Sequence record: KC801932
Reading direction: 5' to 3' (one strand)
Source: Escherichia phage Lw1
Length of the DNA stretch: 64,000 bases
Part shown: piece after piece, positions 41,853 through 45,068 of the stretch
Layout: every line of letters begins with the position of its first letter
How positions within the stretch are numbered: the first letter of the stretch is position 1
Translations under genes and position numbers: made by a program
The notes under the pieces: generated by a model
Database searches by the model: none
What the model was told of the DNA's origin: nothing
What the model saw: the letters and a program-made list of their open reading frames with translations, nothing else

Positions 41853-41856
41853 TCAA

Positions 41857-41887
41857 AAAGCCCCTTGCGAAAGTGAGGGGCTTTTGT
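41857..41887 (+). terminator. rho-independent terminator after nrdD
   Basis: GCCCCT-tgcgaaagtg-AGGGGC followed by TTTTGTT. Confidence 0.6.
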
Positions 41888-41923
41888 TATATTGCACATA
41901 CCTAAACTATGAGGTATTGAAAA

Positions 41924-42406
41924 ATGATGTACTGGACAAAAGATTATTTTGAATTTCGTGATGAAGAAAGTTTTGGGACGGTGTACCGCAACTTAGCTTT
42001 GCGTGGTAGTCCTCTGTCGCCTAATCAACTATCATCTGTCGTGTTTCCAATCAAGGTAACGCACTGTGATCGGAAAGGTGTCAATGGGATCGTTGATGCC
42101 AATGGCACAACCTGGTATTCCGAAGATTCATATCTGTTTGACAACGAGGATCGCGGATTCTTTAAAAAGTTTGTCGCGCTTAAACCTGCTGTTGAAAAAG
42201 CAGACGCACAACAACTGCTGGACTGTTCGCATCTTCTGGGACGAATCTACGTAGATGGTAAACTGGTGACGAAACCTGGTGATCTGGAAAAATTCTTGCG
42301 TAAGGCGCGGGAAACTACCCTGAAAGACACCGAAAAACGACACGTCACAGCAACCGCCGATCTACAGCGTTTATCTGGTGAACTGAAAGTTCTGTGGGGT
42401 GAATGA
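41924..42406 (+). CDS. hypothetical protein
   Basis: 160 aa; TGAGGT 8 nt upstream of the ATG; first gene of the nrdD-nrdG insertion. Confidence 0.5.
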   Translation: MMYWTKDYFEFRDEESFGTVYRNLALRGSPLSPNQLSSVVFPIKVTHCDRKGVNGIVDANGTTWYSEDSYLFDNEDRGFFKKFVALKPAVEKADAQQLLDCSHLLGRIYVDGKLVTKPGDLEKFLRKARETTLKDTEKRHVTATADLQRLSGELKVLWGE

Positions 42407-42906
42407 TGTTCGAGAAAATCCTTGATACTCTGTTTCCCTCCCGTGTACGCGCACGGGTAGAGCGAGAAAACCGACTCGAAGAAATCCGTTTTAACAAGTT
42501 CCTTGAGGACAAGAAGAAGCGCGAAGACGAGAAACACCCAAACGCGGTAATGGCTGAGGGTGTATCGAAATGTTCTGTCGGGCGGTTCTGGGTTGAAAAG
42601 GATTATCTTGATCTGATAGGTGCAATTGCACCTGGTGTTACGCTGGAGGACTTATCCCGTGCAACAGGACGTTCGTATACAGGATGTATAAATCGTCTCC
42701 GTATGTTGTCTATAGTGGTGCGTGGTGCGCATTTTGGCTATCGTGACGTTATCCTTCCGGTGATCCCAGTAAGCAGATTAAAAATTCACCTTGCAAACGG
42801 AAAAAGAATTGACTTAACCGAAGAACTATGTAGAATAGGCTATATCAGAGAGGGGAAATTCGTGAAAGCCCCTGAATGGTTCATCAAACAATTTGAAATC
42901 AAATAA
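42403..42906 (+). CDS. hypothetical protein
   Basis: 167 aa; start overlaps the preceding stop. Confidence 0.5.
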   Translation: MMFEKILDTLFPSRVRARVERENRLEEIRFNKFLEDKKKREDEKHPNAVMAEGVSKCSVGRFWVEKDYLDLIGAIAPGVTLEDLSRATGRSYTGCINRLRMLSIVVRGAHFGYRDVILPVIPVSRLKIHLANGKRIDLTEELCRIGYIREGKFVKAPEWFIKQFEIK

Positions 42907-42915
42907 GGTAATATT

Positions 42916-43512
42916 ATGTTTAAGAAACTGATGTCTTTCATTAACAATAAAGCAGAAACCGCCATCGAAAAGAACACTTCCCCAGAAGACGCATGGCGTA
43001 GTGCTGGACGTATTCTGATCAAAGAGATCGACCGTCTGCGACATACTCGCATTACCGCTGCACACGAAATCAAGAAGCTGGAGAAGAAGGTCGCGGAACA
43101 TAAAGCGCACCATGAGAACAAAGAAGCAGAAATCAAAAAACTGCTGGCGGCTAATCAGGAAGTTTCGAACAGCCATTACATCCTGGCGCTGCAACATCGC
43201 AATATCTGGCAAGGGTTGCAGGACAAGATTGAAGATCTTCGCAGCATGAATGTTCAGATCGACCTTTCGGTTGTCGAACTGGATAAGAAAATGGCTGAGG
43301 TTAAAATCAACCTTGACATTATCGAACTGAACAAAGAAACCGAAAACATGGGCCTGACAATACCGGAAGATGTGATCGCCAGCGTGGGACATACCACTGT
43401 GAACGTCGATACAATCGTAACGAAAATTGATGTGTTGCTGGGTGGCAAGAACGCCGCTTCCGTAACCTCTGCCGATGTCAGCGCGTATATCGATGCCCTA
43501 AAAGCAAACTAA
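42916..43512 (+). CDS. PspA/IM30-like coiled-coil protein (putative)
   Basis: 198 aa, heptad-rich; N-terminal 45 aa (MFKKLMSFINNKAETAIEKNTSPEDAWRSAGRILIKEIDRLR) align in pattern with E. coli PspA N-terminus ([44 protein letters not shown]). Confidence 0.45.
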   Translation: MFKKLMSFINNKAETAIEKNTSPEDAWRSAGRILIKEIDRLRHTRITAAHEIKKLEKKVAEHKAHHENKEAEIKKLLAANQEVSNSHYILALQHRNIWQGLQDKIEDLRSMNVQIDLSVVELDKKMAEVKINLDIIELNKETENMGLTIPEDVIASVGHTTVNVDTIVTKIDVLLGGKNAASVTSADVSAYIDALKAN

Positions 43513-43517
43513 GAGGA

Positions 43518-43538
43518 AGGGGCGAAAGCCCCTTTTTT
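43518..43538 (+). terminator. rho-independent terminator
   Basis: AGGGGC-gaaa-GCCCCT followed by TTTTTT. Confidence 0.75.
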
Positions 43539-43542
43539 CATT

Positions 43543-44430
43543 ATGTATAGTATTGAGAAAGATTATGGCGGTGGTTGCTGGGTAGTAGATCATGTTACTC
43601 TTGTAAAAGAAAAACTTCCTGATAACTGGGAATTTTTATCTACATCCACGAAAAATCGTATTGCTGATACTGTTTACCGTACAGCAATGGAACGACATAA
43701 AAATGATATTCATCGACGAAAAGCACAGATGTTGAAATCTCGTAATATCGATGTTAGTCATTTGGATATAATAGGAACTCAACCGATGACGCTTTCAAGC
43801 ATCACCAACGCTTACGTGAATGGCGAAACCCGCGAGGAAGAAAAAATGATGTGGGAACCTGGATTATCAGAACCGGATAATGGATATAAAAAGCAAATGC
43901 AATCTCTTGATTTTAATGAGAAAATCAATAATTTGCTTAATTATTGCGCATCGAGCGTTTCGTCGTGGGAATATCATGGCCCGATTGATATAGCAGGTTT
44001 TACTGCTCGTGGTGTTGAGGTTTTTAACTTCGAAAAACTGATGAATGGTATCATGTCTTCTGACTATATCGTTTCTGTGAATGTCCCTGTTGTTGCGACA
44101 TCCCGTTTTTCATCTCCTTGTAACGTTGTTACGGATAAACTTAATATTGTTGCTGTCGATAATAGCGATGTTAATATTAGCGATGGTGATAGAATCGGAA
44201 GCATCCTGGTTGCCCTAGAACTGACTTGCGAAGACGGCTATACTTGTAGTATGTTTGTTGTTTCTTGTGTTGATGATGCCGTGAACTCAGTGTTTACTAA
44301 TTTCAGCAAGAAATTAAATGCTCTGCATATTGAAAAATTTATACACAAATGTAAAAAGAACGTGATGGGGAATTATGATCCGTCATTAACATACACGAAA
44401 ATTGATGAAAACATGGTGGACTTATGCTGA
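43543..44430 (+). CDS. hypothetical protein
   Basis: 295 aa ORF; no recognised family. Confidence 0.5.
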   Translation: MYSIEKDYGGGCWVVDHVTLVKEKLPDNWEFLSTSTKNRIADTVYRTAMERHKNDIHRRKAQMLKSRNIDVSHLDIIGTQPMTLSSITNAYVNGETREEEKMMWEPGLSEPDNGYKKQMQSLDFNEKINNLLNYCASSVSSWEYHGPIDIAGFTARGVEVFNFEKLMNGIMSSDYIVSVNVPVVATSRFSSPCNVVTDKLNIVAVDNSDVNISDGDRIGSILVALELTCEDGYTCSMFVVSCVDDAVNSVFTNFSKKLNALHIEKFIHKCKKNVMGNYDPSLTYTKIDENMVDLC

Positions 44431-44714
44431 TTAATACGGCGCAATGTAAAGCCCTGAACTTTCTGATTCATGAACTGGTTGAATACGATATTCCTTTTGA
44501 GTTCGTCGATCCGATAAACTCAGAATACAACTATACGTTTTTCTGGTCGTCTGGTGATGACAGTATCGACGCGGTGGATAAAATCGTTAGAAGTGCTCTA
44601 CGTAATAATAGCATGGTGATGATCGGAAGCGTAAACGCTAACACCTGGAACGGTGCTGATGCGTATTTCATCGGCTATCGGACTATGTTTGATACGGTAG
44701 TAGAAATATGTTGA
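44424..44714 (+). CDS. hypothetical protein
   Basis: 96 aa ORF overlapping the preceding stop. Confidence 0.45.
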   Translation: MLINTAQCKALNFLIHELVEYDIPFEFVDPINSEYNYTFFWSSGDDSIDAVDKIVRSALRNNSMVMIGSVNANTWNGADAYFIGYRTMFDTVVEIC

Positions 44715-44739
44715 CAGCGGATTCATGAACGCGTACTAT
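44711..44739 (+). promoter_or_regulatory. sigma70-like promoter TTGACA-N17-TACTAT followed by a 5' hairpin
   Basis: Hexamers at 44711-44716 and 44734-44739; hairpin GCCCCTGTAG...CTATAGGGGC at 44740-44767 directly downstream. Confidence 0.5.
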
Positions 44740-44773
44740 GCCCCTGTAGACAACAAACTATAGGGGCTAAATC

Positions 44774-45010
44774 ATGAAAATCAAAAATACTGCTACTGAA
44801 AATCTTTGCAACGAAATCGCGGTGACTTACTGGAAAGAAGGTCACGCAAAAGCAATGAAGGATTTTCAACACTGGAAAGAAGGTCACGCAAAAGCAATGA
44901 AGGATTTTCAACCGTGGTGTGATACCCAGAAGTTAGCCAAATGGGAATACATCGTAATCGTGGAACGGATCAAAGAACTGATCCTTGAGAAGAAAGGCAC
45001 TATAAAATGA
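44774..45010 (+). CDS. hypothetical small protein containing an in-frame 14-codon tandem duplication
   Basis: 78 aa; WKEGHAKAMKDFQH / WKEGHAKAMKDFQP encoded by the 42-bp tandem repeat. Confidence 0.45.
   Translation: MKIKNTATENLCNEIAVTYWKEGHAKAMKDFQHWKEGHAKAMKDFQPWCDTQKLAKWEYIVIVERIKELILEKKGTIK
44830..44913 (+). repeat. perfect-over-40-nt tandem duplication, period 42 bp, 2 copies
   Basis: ctggaaagaaggtcacgcaaaagcaatgaaggattttcaa at 44830-44869 and again at 44872-44911. Confidence 0.9.
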
Positions 45011-45068
45011 TTCAACTGAAATTAGACACCTATACGCTGAACAATCTGTTCCCAGAGGCAAAAGGCTG

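What the first reader, a model, noticed from the sequence alone, without database searches (positions are those of the whole stretch)
42916..43512. PspA/IM30-like coiled-coil protein encoded within the nrdD-nrdG insertion
The 198-aa protein is almost entirely heptad-repeat coiled coil, and its N-terminal 45 residues follow the residue pattern of the PspA/Vipp1 N-terminal amphipathic helix and first coiled-coil helix. PspA-family (ESCRT-III-like) proteins bind and repair stressed membranes. A phage copy could stabilise the inner membrane against holin leakage or abortive-infection membrane toxins, or could modulate the host Psp response. It is followed by a strong terminator.
Basis: inference. 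Interest (0 to 1): 0.55.

Follow-up and report, generated by a model that had tools for sequence, protein, structure and literature searches.

The report
Phage-encoded PspA-like membrane protein
This T4-like phage gene, the counterpart of the uncharacterised T4 gene e.6, encodes a short, divergent relative of the bacterial membrane-repair protein PspA/Vipp1, so many large phages probably carry their own membrane-stabilising protein, although its function is untested.

Summary
Window 42916-43512 (+) is a real 198-aa gene with a ribosome-binding site and a strong terminator, in an RB43-like Pseudotevenvirus. The PspA reading also holds at the level of homology.

- Pfam PspA_IM30 is the top but sub-threshold hit (20.9 bits against a cut-off of 33.9).
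- Two clear relatives of the protein pass the Pfam cut-off.
- A 38-sequence family profile finds only Vipp1/PspA as its nine best PDB matches, aligned 1-145 to 1-146.
- hhalign against PspA gives 94.5% probability, E 8e-8. Reversed and shuffled controls give 0.2% or less.
- The AlphaFold model shows an amphipathic N-terminal helix plus the long helical hairpin, and Foldseek ranks Vipp1 first.
- The C-terminal 50 residues are family-specific and about 24 residues shorter than in PspA. Homology there is unproven.

The gene is the orthologue of T4 e.6 (phrog_1203), found in more than 1,100 Straboviridae and Ackermannviridae genome records and annotated as hypothetical in nearly all of them. In T4, e.6 mRNA is early, the protein accumulates at middle times, and knock-down has no fitness cost in the laboratory.

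The most likely role is phage-supplied stabilisation of the inner membrane and proton-motive force. That role is inferred, not shown. I class it as a new variant of a known kind, of moderate to high interest.

The parts
41856..41885 (+). Intrinsic terminator after nrdD. It marks the upstream edge of the small transcription unit that ends with the PspA-like gene.
   Evidence: 13-bp stem, 6 G-C pairs, T-run. A terminator is annotated at the same place in phage Margaery.
41924..42906 (+). Two upstream ORFs (41924-42406, 160 aa, phrog_8646; 42403-42906, 167 aa, phrog_10107). They are probably co-transcribed with the PspA-like gene. Function unknown, no transmembrane segments.
   Evidence: Overlapping or close-packed ORFs with no terminator between them. 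PHROG hits. Hydropathy. They are not conserved next to T4 e.6.
42905..42908 (+). Ribosome-binding site AAGG, 7 nt upstream of the ATG.
   Evidence: Read directly from the sequence.
42916..43512 (+). CDS of the 198-aa PspA/IM30-like protein, the orthologue of T4 e.6 (phrog_1203).
   Evidence: 30% identity and E 3e-28 to T4 e.6 over the full length. hhalign to PspA gives 94.5% probability, E 8e-8.
42919..42975 (+). Residues 2-20: predicted N-terminal amphipathic helix (alpha0), FKKLMSFINNKAETAIEKN, aligned to the PspA/Vipp1 membrane-binding helix AHa. P23 (42982-42984) aligns with the PspA helix-breaker P25.
   Evidence: Helix in both AF2 models. Hydrophobic moment 0.47 against 0.41 for E. coli PspA and 0.59 for Vipp1. 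Net charge +2, and positive in 35 of the 38 family members. Alignment. Role of AHa and P25 from PMC4556811.
42982..43347 (+). Residues 23-144: the alpha1 / alpha2-3 helical hairpin (helices 23-78 and 85-144, tip at 79-84). This is the hallmark of the PspA/Vipp1/ESCRT-III superfamily.
43348..43509 (+). Residues 145-198: family-specific C-terminal module. It contains the invariant G146 ('elbow'), the motifs LG[IL]xxxEDV and V[DN]VDT, a variable linker at 176-184, and a terminal helix 185-197 with near-invariant Y191 and conserved L195. It may be a shortened alpha4/alpha5.
   Evidence: It is conserved at least as well as the hairpin. pLDDT is low, 44-77. hhalign carries the alignment on to PspA residue 172, but the C-terminus alone is not significant (probability 1.6%).
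43513..43538 (+). Intrinsic terminator ending the unit (GAGGAAGGGGC-GAAA-GCCCCTTTTTT).
   Evidence: -17.2 kcal/mol, z -4.2. A terminator is annotated at the same position in phage Margaery.
43543..44430 (+). Downstream 295-aa ORF (phrog_10543). It may be a very distant relative of T4 e.5, the gene that follows e.6 in most T4-like phages. Its membership of a functional pair is unproven.
   Evidence: hhalign of the window/Margaery/POP12 group against the e.5-like group gives E 1.4e-3 at only 17.5% probability, with a shared C-terminal EKF[IV]xxC[KR] motif. The e.5-like PHROG network is.

Best explanation
The gene encodes a soluble, peripheral-membrane protein that is a divergent, phage-specific and shortened member of the PspA/IM30(Vipp1)/ESCRT-III superfamily. 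It is the Pseudotevenvirus orthologue of T4 e.6.

Shown: common ancestry with PspA over alpha0 to alpha3 (residues 1 to about 145, perhaps to 175); the predicted amphipathic N-terminal helix plus long hairpin; wide conservation in Straboviridae and Ackermannviridae; placement in early/middle gene clusters.

Inferred mechanism: the protein is made early to mid infection. It binds the cytoplasmic face of the inner membrane through alpha0 and the hairpin, and probably self-assembles, with the conserved C-terminal helix packing on a neighbour's hairpin as alpha5 does in PspA. This limits proton leakage and keeps up the proton-motive force of the infected cell. It would therefore substitute for the host's inducible Psp response, which depends on sigma54 and PspF. 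A T4-like phage cannot rely on that response once it shuts off host transcription. The benefit would be sustained energy supply and no premature triggering of the holin, for example during lysis inhibition or superinfection.

My confidence is about 0.9 for the homology and about 0.45 for the membrane-maintenance function.
For: Homology:
- Pfam PspA_IM30 is the top hit, at E 3e-4, residues 2-146 against model positions 3-148. It is the most frequent hit among family members (8 of 11; 9 of 38).
- Relatives P0077 (39.0 bits) and P0071 (35.1 bits) pass the 33.9-bit Pfam cut-off. Both are unambiguous relatives of the window protein (E 1.6e-23 and 1.8e-27 to its profile).
- The family profile run against 177,635 PDB sequences gives only Vipp1/PspA as its nine best hits (E 4e-5 to 2e-3), aligned 1-145 to 1-146.
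- hhalign gives 94.5% probability, E 8e-8, over 168 columns. Reversed and column-shuffled PspA controls give 0.2% or less. Circular shifts recover the same register.

Structure:
- AF2 pLDDT is 80, with helices at 2-20, 23-78 and 85-144.
- The Foldseek top 8 PDB hits are all Vipp1, followed by CdvB2 and PspA.
- alpha0 is amphipathic and cationic like PspA AHa. AHa is required for membrane binding (PMC4556811).

Biology:
- There is no late promoter motif nearby.
- The gene lies among early/middle nucleotide-metabolism genes here, and among replication genes in Ackermannviridae.
- T4 e.6 is classed as early mRNA with middle protein (PMC9697503 supplement).
- T4 infection induces the host psp operon only weakly (PMC12795941).
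- In T4, Klebsiella phi1_146043 and Erwinia FBB1, e.6-e.5 is followed by three small predicted membrane proteins. In Kuttervirus GOT a predicted membrane protein follows directly.
Against: - The window protein itself is below the Pfam gathering score (20.9 against 33.9 bits). T4 e.6 alone gives no PspA hit at all.
- The C-terminal region, which in PspA/Vipp1 carries the alpha5 domain-swap needed for polymers, is about 24 residues shorter and not demonstrably homologous. E. coli PspA lacking its last helical domain does not form higher oligomers (PMC4556811).
- No membrane binding, oligomerisation or phenotype has been measured.
- T4 e.6 knock-down has no fitness cost under laboratory conditions (PMC11879866 supplement).
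- No membrane-protein partner lies near the gene in this window.
Confidence: 0.5

Rival explanations
1. Regulatory mimic or poison subunit. The protein uses its PspA-like alpha1-alpha3 surface to bind host PspF (as PspA does) and block induction of the host Psp response, or it co-assembles with host PspA and disables or redirects it. On this reading the membrane effect is indirect.
For: The homologous region (residues 1 to about 145) is the part of PspA that carries negative regulation. An AHb (residues 25-42) deletion mutant of PspA loses regulatory function, and PspA1-186 keeps negative regulation without forming large oligomers (PMC4556811). The phage protein looks like a C-terminally shortened PspA. 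T4 gives only weak psp induction. A truncated gain-of-function PspA alters the Klebsiella envelope and its phage sensitivity (PMC12234005).
Against: Identity to host PspA in the profile alignment is only about 16%, and pairwise BLAST finds nothing, so conservation of a specific PspF-binding surface is doubtful. T4-like phages already shut off host transcription (established knowledge), which makes a dedicated PspF inhibitor largely redundant. The family occurs in phages of many hosts and has a strongly conserved C-terminal module of its own.
Confidence: 0.13
2. Counter-defence protein. The PspA-like protein specifically neutralises host abortive-infection effectors that kill by depolarising or permeabilising the inner membrane, and has no housekeeping role in unchallenged hosts.
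For: It is dispensable in a laboratory K-12-type host, as is typical of anti-defence genes. It is an early or middle gene in a variable accessory region. The PspA fold is suited to sealing leaky membranes.
Against: The gene is conserved across more than 1,100 genome records from at least two phage families, at constant length. That pattern fits a general physiological role better than a strain-specific arms-race gene. No known anti-defence family matches it. I did not run a defence-system library (PADLOC) on this protein.
Confidence: 0.12
3. A PspA-derived or convergent helical hairpin used for something unrelated to membranes, for example a chaperone, a scaffold, or an adaptor for replication or nucleotide-metabolism complexes.
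Against: Convergence is unlikely. The match is specific to one register, starts at residue 1, includes the alpha0 helix and its breaker, and vanishes with reversed or shuffled controls. Two relatives pass the curated Pfam threshold. The cationic amphipathic alpha0 is conserved across the family.
Confidence: 0.12
4. A virion or tail-associated structural protein, as some database records label its relatives ('host specificity protein', 'tail completion protein').
For: The only support is the annotation strings on a few records.
Against: The gene lies in early/middle gene clusters with no late promoter motif. T4 e.6 mRNA is early. There is no similarity to tail proteins in Pfam, PHROGs or the PDB. 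The labels are inconsistent between near-identical proteins.
Confidence: 0.03

Closest known systems
E. coli PspA (phage shock protein A; Pfam PF04012; PDB 4WHE)
   Same: An N-terminal amphipathic helix followed by a helix breaker, then the alpha1 / alpha2-3 hairpin. The alignment is collinear from residue 1 to about residue 172 of PspA (hhalign 94.5% probability). The size class is similar (198 against 222 aa). Both are soluble with no transmembrane segment.
   Different: Identity in the profile alignment is only about 16%. The window protein is below the Pfam cut-off. The alpha4/alpha5 region is about 24 residues shorter and not demonstrably homologous. The gene is encoded by a virulent phage, with no pspF or pspBC neighbours and no sigma54 promoter context. 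The function is untested.
Cyanobacterial/plastid Vipp1 (IM30); PDB 7O3W, 6ZVR, 8QFV
   Same: Best sequence-profile hits in the PDB (E 4e-5, aligned 1-145 to 1-146) and best Foldseek hits. It has the same alpha0 plus hairpin architecture, which builds ESCRT-III-like rings that bind and deform membranes (PMC8281802).
   Different: Vipp1 has full-length alpha4 and alpha5 plus an extra alpha6. The phage protein lacks these lengths. Polymer formation by the phage protein is unknown.
Bacteriophage T4 e.6 (NP_049742.1, phrog_1203), uncharacterised
   Same: Orthologue: 30% identity over the full length, E 3e-28. Same PHROG. Same length class.
   Different: The genomic position differs. T4 e.6 lies between e.7 and e.5, near the lysozyme and tRNA genes, whereas this gene lies between nrdD and nrdG. 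T4 e.6 has drifted so far that on its own it gives no Pfam PspA signal. No function is published in the literature I could search.
Archaeal and eukaryotic ESCRT-III (CdvB2, CHMP1B, Snf7)
   Different: There is no detectable sequence similarity, no MIM/Vps4-type partner, and these proteins lack the PspA-type alpha0.

Membership tests
PspA/IM30 family (Pfam PF04012) | Sequence score at or above the curated gathering threshold (33.9 bits) | tested here: not met
   The window protein scores 20.9 bits, E 3e-4. T4 e.6 gives no hit at E up to 0.1. Family members P0077 (39.0 bits) and P0071 (35.1 bits) do pass, and both are clear relatives of the window protein.
PspA/IM30/ESCRT-III superfamily | Statistically supported, collinear profile-level homology to PspA/Vipp1 | tested here: met
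   hhalign gives 94.5% probability, E 8e-8, over 168 columns. Controls give 0.2% or less. The nine best hits of the PDB profile search are all Vipp1/PspA.
PspA/IM30/ESCRT-III superfamily | Helical hairpin motif (alpha1 plus the joined alpha2/alpha3, about 120 residues) | tested here: met
PspA/IM30 family | N-terminal amphipathic membrane-binding helix (alpha0/AHa) separated from alpha1 by a helix breaker (P25 in PspA) | tested here: met
   Predicted helix at 2-20, hydrophobic moment 0.47, net charge +2. P23 aligns with PspA P25. The proline is not universal in the wider phage family. Actual membrane binding was not tested.
PspA/IM30/ESCRT-III superfamily | alpha4 and alpha5 with hinges; alpha5 domain-swap onto a neighbour's hairpin tip (Interface 1), which builds the polymer | tested here: inconclusive
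   The invariant G146 and short helices at 152-157, 165-174 and 185-197 could be a shortened elbow, alpha4 and alpha5. hhalign extends to PspA residue 172, but the C-terminus alone gives only 1.6% probability. The feature is defined in PMC8281802.
PspA/IM30/ESCRT-III superfamily | Homo-oligomeric rings or rods, and membrane binding or remodelling | not testable with these tools
   This needs purified protein, or a multimer structure prediction, which was not available here.
Proteobacterial Psp system | Operon or regulon context with pspF and pspB/pspC and a sigma54 promoter | tested here: not met
   The neighbours are phage ORFs of unknown function with no transmembrane segments. The small membrane proteins near T4 e.6 give no Pfam PspB or PspC match.
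T4 e.6 family (phrog_1203) | Full-length match to the PHROG profile and to T4 e.6 | tested here: met
   phrog_1203 at E 2e-71, residues 1-196 against model positions 3-199 of 200. BLASTP to T4 e.6 gives 30% identity, E 3e-28, over 195 aligned positions.

The most novel reading that the evidence does not exclude
The e.6 family is a true viral ESCRT-III-like polymer. Large lytic phages would express it early to remodel or reseal the host inner membrane for their own purposes, not merely to replace PspA. Possible purposes are closing the lesion left by DNA injection, excluding superinfecting phage DNA, organising membrane-bound assembly sites, or holding the holin-loaded membrane intact during lysis inhibition. 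The family-specific C-terminal module would provide a new assembly or partner interface, possibly with the co-conserved e.5-type protein and the small e.2-e.4 membrane proteins.
Probability: 0.15. Interest if true: 0.8.

Novelty: new variant of a known kind. Interest (0 to 1): 0.6.

Why it matters
PspA was named 'phage shock protein' because phage infection induces it in the host. This result indicates that more than a thousand sequenced T4-like and Vi1-like phages encode their own divergent PspA/ESCRT-III-type protein. One of them is T4 e.6, a gene still listed as 'function unknown' in a 2025 genome-wide study of T4 (PMC11879866). The result gives a concrete, testable hypothesis for a conserved dark-matter gene of the best-studied phage. 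It extends the PspA/Vipp1/ESCRT-III superfamily to viruses of bacteria. It also points to membrane energetics as something these phages manage actively once host gene expression is shut off. A naturally shortened PspA with a different C-terminal module could also help show which parts of the fold are needed for membrane binding and which for polymerisation.

Tried and rejected
- **Single-sequence searches were too weak.** phmmer against the PDB gave only noise, with Vipp1 at E 1.3. A profile of close relatives placed PspA at E 7.5. The link became significant only with the 38-sequence profile built from the exhaustive representative search.
- **NCBIfam** gave only scattered weak hits. The PspA equivalog appeared for one relative at E 6e-3.
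- **T4 IPIII as orthologue.** I suspected it at first from gene length and map position. BLASTP gives E 0.029 over 39 residues, so I rejected it. e.6 is the orthologue.
- **Conserved neighbours with T4.** None of the window ORFs flanking the gene matches T4 e.1-e.8. A possible remote link between the downstream ORF and e.5 stays inconclusive.
- **PspB/PspC-like partners.** The small membrane proteins next to T4 e.6 give no Pfam match.
- **Homology of the C-terminal module** to PspA alpha4/alpha5 is not significant when tested alone.
- The afdb50 library was unavailable.
- **Literature searches** for T4 e.6, its accession numbers, or phage-encoded PspA homologues found no functional study.
- **Paralogues and late promoters.** There is no paralogue in the window. 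No late promoter (TATAAATA) lies between 28.3 kb and 49.3 kb on the + strand.

Full report
**1. The observation**

The window is part of an RB43-like T4-type phage (genus Pseudotevenvirus, Straboviridae). The region 41800-45600 matches phages of Buttiauxella, Citrobacter, Cronobacter, Enterobacter and Klebsiella at 82-90% identity. Citrobacter phage Margaery has the same gene order.

AAGG lies 7 nt before the ATG. A strong intrinsic terminator follows the stop codon at once (43513-43538, -17.2 kcal/mol, z -4.2). A second terminator lies after nrdD (41856-41885). The gene therefore closes a three-gene unit (41924-43512).

This unit sits inside a 3.2-kb block of six ORFs between nrdD and nrdG. 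In T4 that interval holds only the homing endonuclease mobC. The gene has no paralogue in the window and no predicted transmembrane segment.

**2. Identity: family membership**

The protein matches phrog_1203 ('unknown function') over its full length at E 2e-71. The word-indexed protein search returned 58 clusters at 56% identity or more, all about 198 aa. Those with long contigs lie on roughly 175-180-kb phage contigs. All are unnamed or 'hypothetical', except for one automatic JGI label, 'phage shock protein A'.

An exhaustive HMM search of 1.84 billion cluster representatives found 44 representatives. The full-length ones are 195-209 aa, and no canonical PspA appeared at E 1e-3 or better. 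This is a compact, distinct family.

tblastn finds the family in 1,176 phage records, including T2 and the Tequatrovirus group. A distant member finds 528 records, which extend to Ackermannviridae: Taipeivirus and Kuttervirus.

The T4 orthologue is e.6 (NP_049742.1, 197 aa), at 30% identity and E 3e-28 over 195 aligned positions. My first guess, IPIII, was wrong.

**3. Identity: relationship to PspA**

*Pfam.* PspA_IM30 is the best hit of the window protein. It scores 20.9 bits (E 3e-4), below the 33.9-bit gathering score, and aligns residues 2-146 to model positions 3-148. It is the most frequent hit among relatives. Two members of the phage family, P0077 (39.0 bits) and P0071 (35.1 bits), pass the curated threshold.

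*PDB profile search.* A profile of 38 diverse members was searched against all PDB sequences. Its nine best hits were Vipp1/PspA and nothing else (E 4e-5 to 2e-3), always aligned from residue 1 to about residue 145 of both proteins.

*Profile against profile.* hhalign against a small PspA/Vipp1 alignment gave 94.5% probability, E 8e-8, over 168 columns.

*Controls.* Reversed and column-shuffled PspA alignments gave 0.2% probability or less and E 0.28 or worse. Circular shifts by multiples of seven always recovered the true register. The first 27-63 alignment columns (the protein N-terminus) alone still found the PspA N-terminus at E 1e-3 to 6e-5. The similarity is therefore not generic coiled-coil bias.

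*Not a recent capture.* Pairwise BLAST against Klebsiella PspA finds nothing (E 0.30). T4 e.6 alone gives no Pfam PspA signal. This explains why the relationship has gone unannotated, and it shows that the gene was not recently taken from a host.

**4. Structure**

AlphaFold2 with the 38-sequence alignment gives mean pLDDT 80.2. It predicts helices at 2-20, 23-78 and 85-144, with pLDDT 84-98 over the hairpin. Three short helices follow at 152-157, 165-174 and 185-197, with low confidence (first model).

Foldseek against the PDB ranks eight Vipp1 chains first (best E 7e-4). Archaeal CdvB2 (ESCRT-III) follows, with PspA lower in the list.

**5. Anatomy compared with PspA**

*N-terminal helix.* Residues 2-20 (FKKLMSFINNKAETAIEKN) form an amphipathic helix. 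Its hydrophobic moment is 0.47, against 0.41 for E. coli PspA and 0.59 for Vipp1. Its net charge is +2, and the charge is positive in 35 of the 38 family members. In PspA and Vipp1 this helix (AHa, residues 2-19) is required for direct membrane binding, and P25 breaks the helix (PMC4556811). P23 of the phage protein aligns with P25.

*Hairpin.* Residues 23-144 correspond to PspA 24-142. This is the hallmark of the PspA/Vipp1/ESCRT-III superfamily (PMC8281802).

*C-terminal module.* Residues 145-198 are at least as conserved as the hairpin. They include the invariant G146, the motifs LG[IL]xxxEDV and V[DN]VDT, and the conserved Y191 and L195. The segment is about 24 residues shorter than the matching part of PspA. 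Taken alone it is not significantly similar to it (1.6% probability).

In Vipp1 and ESCRT-III, alpha5 binds a neighbour's hairpin tip, and that contact builds the polymer. E. coli PspA1-186 no longer forms higher oligomers. Whether the phage protein polymerises is therefore open.

**6. Expression and dispensability**

No late-promoter motif (TATAAATA) occurs on the + strand between 28.3 kb and 49.3 kb. The gene lies among early/middle nucleotide-metabolism genes here, and among primase, ligase and helicase-loader genes in Ackermannviridae.

T4 e.6 is classed as early at the RNA level and middle at the protein level, so the protein is made in infected cells (PMC9697503 supplement). A genome-wide CRISPRi-ART knock-down study of T4 lists e.6 as of unknown function and 'Not Fit' after knock-down, meaning no measurable fitness cost in the laboratory (PMC11879866 supplement). 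T4 infection induces the host psp operon only weakly, unlike PhiX174 (PMC12795941).

**7. Genomic associations**

The flanking genes differ between this phage and T4. In T4, Klebsiella phi1_146043, Erwinia FBB1 and Aeromonas phages, however, the gene downstream of the e.6 homologue belongs to a linked set of e.5-like PHROGs: 2607, 13418, 16253 and 10830.

In the first three of those phages, three small predicted membrane proteins of the e.4, e.3 and e.2 type come next. In Kuttervirus GOT a predicted membrane protein follows directly. None of these small proteins matches Pfam PspB or PspC.

The window's downstream ORF (43543-44430) is at best a very remote relative of e.5 (hhalign E 1.4e-3, probability 17.5%). 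These associations fit a membrane-related role in some lineages, but they are not universal.

**8. Mechanism**

*Shown.* The protein is a divergent PspA/IM30-superfamily member with a conserved alpha0 and hairpin, encoded by large virulent phages in early or middle gene clusters.

*Inferred, about 0.45.* It binds the inner membrane and stabilises it, maintaining the proton-motive force. In effect it replaces the host's inducible Psp response, which a phage that shuts off host transcription cannot rely on. Host shut-off by T4-type phages is established knowledge, not tested here. This would prevent energy loss and premature holin triggering.

*Rivals.*
- Mimicry of PspA's regulatory interaction with PspF, or poisoning of host PspA (0.13).
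- Dedicated counter-defence against membrane-depolarising abortive-infection effectors (0.12).
- A hairpin re-used for a role unrelated to membranes (0.12).
- A virion protein, as a few records annotate it (0.03).

**9. Novelty**

I found no paper in the searchable library that links T4 e.6 or any T4-like phage gene to PspA. Reviews and evolutionary surveys of PspA/ESCRT-III do not discuss phage-encoded members. The only trace is the automatic JGI label.

The protein cannot be filed as an ordinary PF04012 member, because it scores below the threshold and its C-terminus differs. It is a new, shortened, virus-specific variant of a known kind. Interest: 0.6.

Noticed in passing
window 44829-44912: A perfect 42-bp tandem duplication (2.0 copies, 100% match) lies inside the 78-aa ORF 44774-45010 (phrog_5072). 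It duplicates a 14-residue peptide (WKEGHAKAMKDFQ plus one more residue). It looks like a recent in-frame duplication.
   Followed up: partly
window 43543-44430; L002 6663-7271 (T4 e.5); L008 3628-4218; L010 3638-4204; L007 3630-4421: In many T4-like phages the gene after the e.6 homologue is an e.5-like protein (linked PHROGs 2607, 13418, 16253, 10830), so e.6-e.5 may be a conserved pair. The window's downstream ORF (phrog_10543) shares only a C-terminal EKF[IV]xxC[KR] motif with them (hhalign E 1.4e-3, probability 17.5%).
   Followed up: partly
L002 5653-6694 (T4 e.2-e.4); L008 4215-5193; L010 4191-5254; L009 3497-4219: In T4, Klebsiella phage phi1_146043 and Erwinia phage FBB1, e.6-e.5 is followed by three small predicted membrane proteins. 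In Kuttervirus GOT a predicted membrane protein (phrog_11433) directly follows the PspA-like gene. None of them matches Pfam PspB or PspC. No such genes lie near the window copy.
   Followed up: partly
public records: Some family members are labelled 'host specificity protein' (for example Escherichia phages AV112 and vB_EcoM-G3F6) or 'Tail completion protein' (Klebsiella phage UPM 2146). Two members are attributed to Brucella melitensis and Enterobacter cloacae complex, although their longest contigs are about 175 kb. These are probably annotation errors, or phage contigs inside bacterial assemblies.
   Followed up: no
window 41856-41893: The nrdD terminator (13-bp stem) overlaps a sigma70-like site: TTGCGA, 17 nt, TATATT, with a TG extension. 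This may be a restart promoter for the three-gene unit that ends with the PspA-like gene.
   Followed up: no
window 41853-45068 versus T4 (L005) and Margaery (L001): The nrdD-nrdG interval is a variable slot. T4 has only mobC there, this phage has six ORFs, and Margaery has eight. The e.6 orthologue has moved here from its T4 position near the lysozyme and tRNA genes.
   Followed up: partly
window 42916-43512: Third-position G+C of the gene is 0.54, against 0.32-0.49 for its neighbours. This may reflect codon usage for high expression.
   Followed up: no
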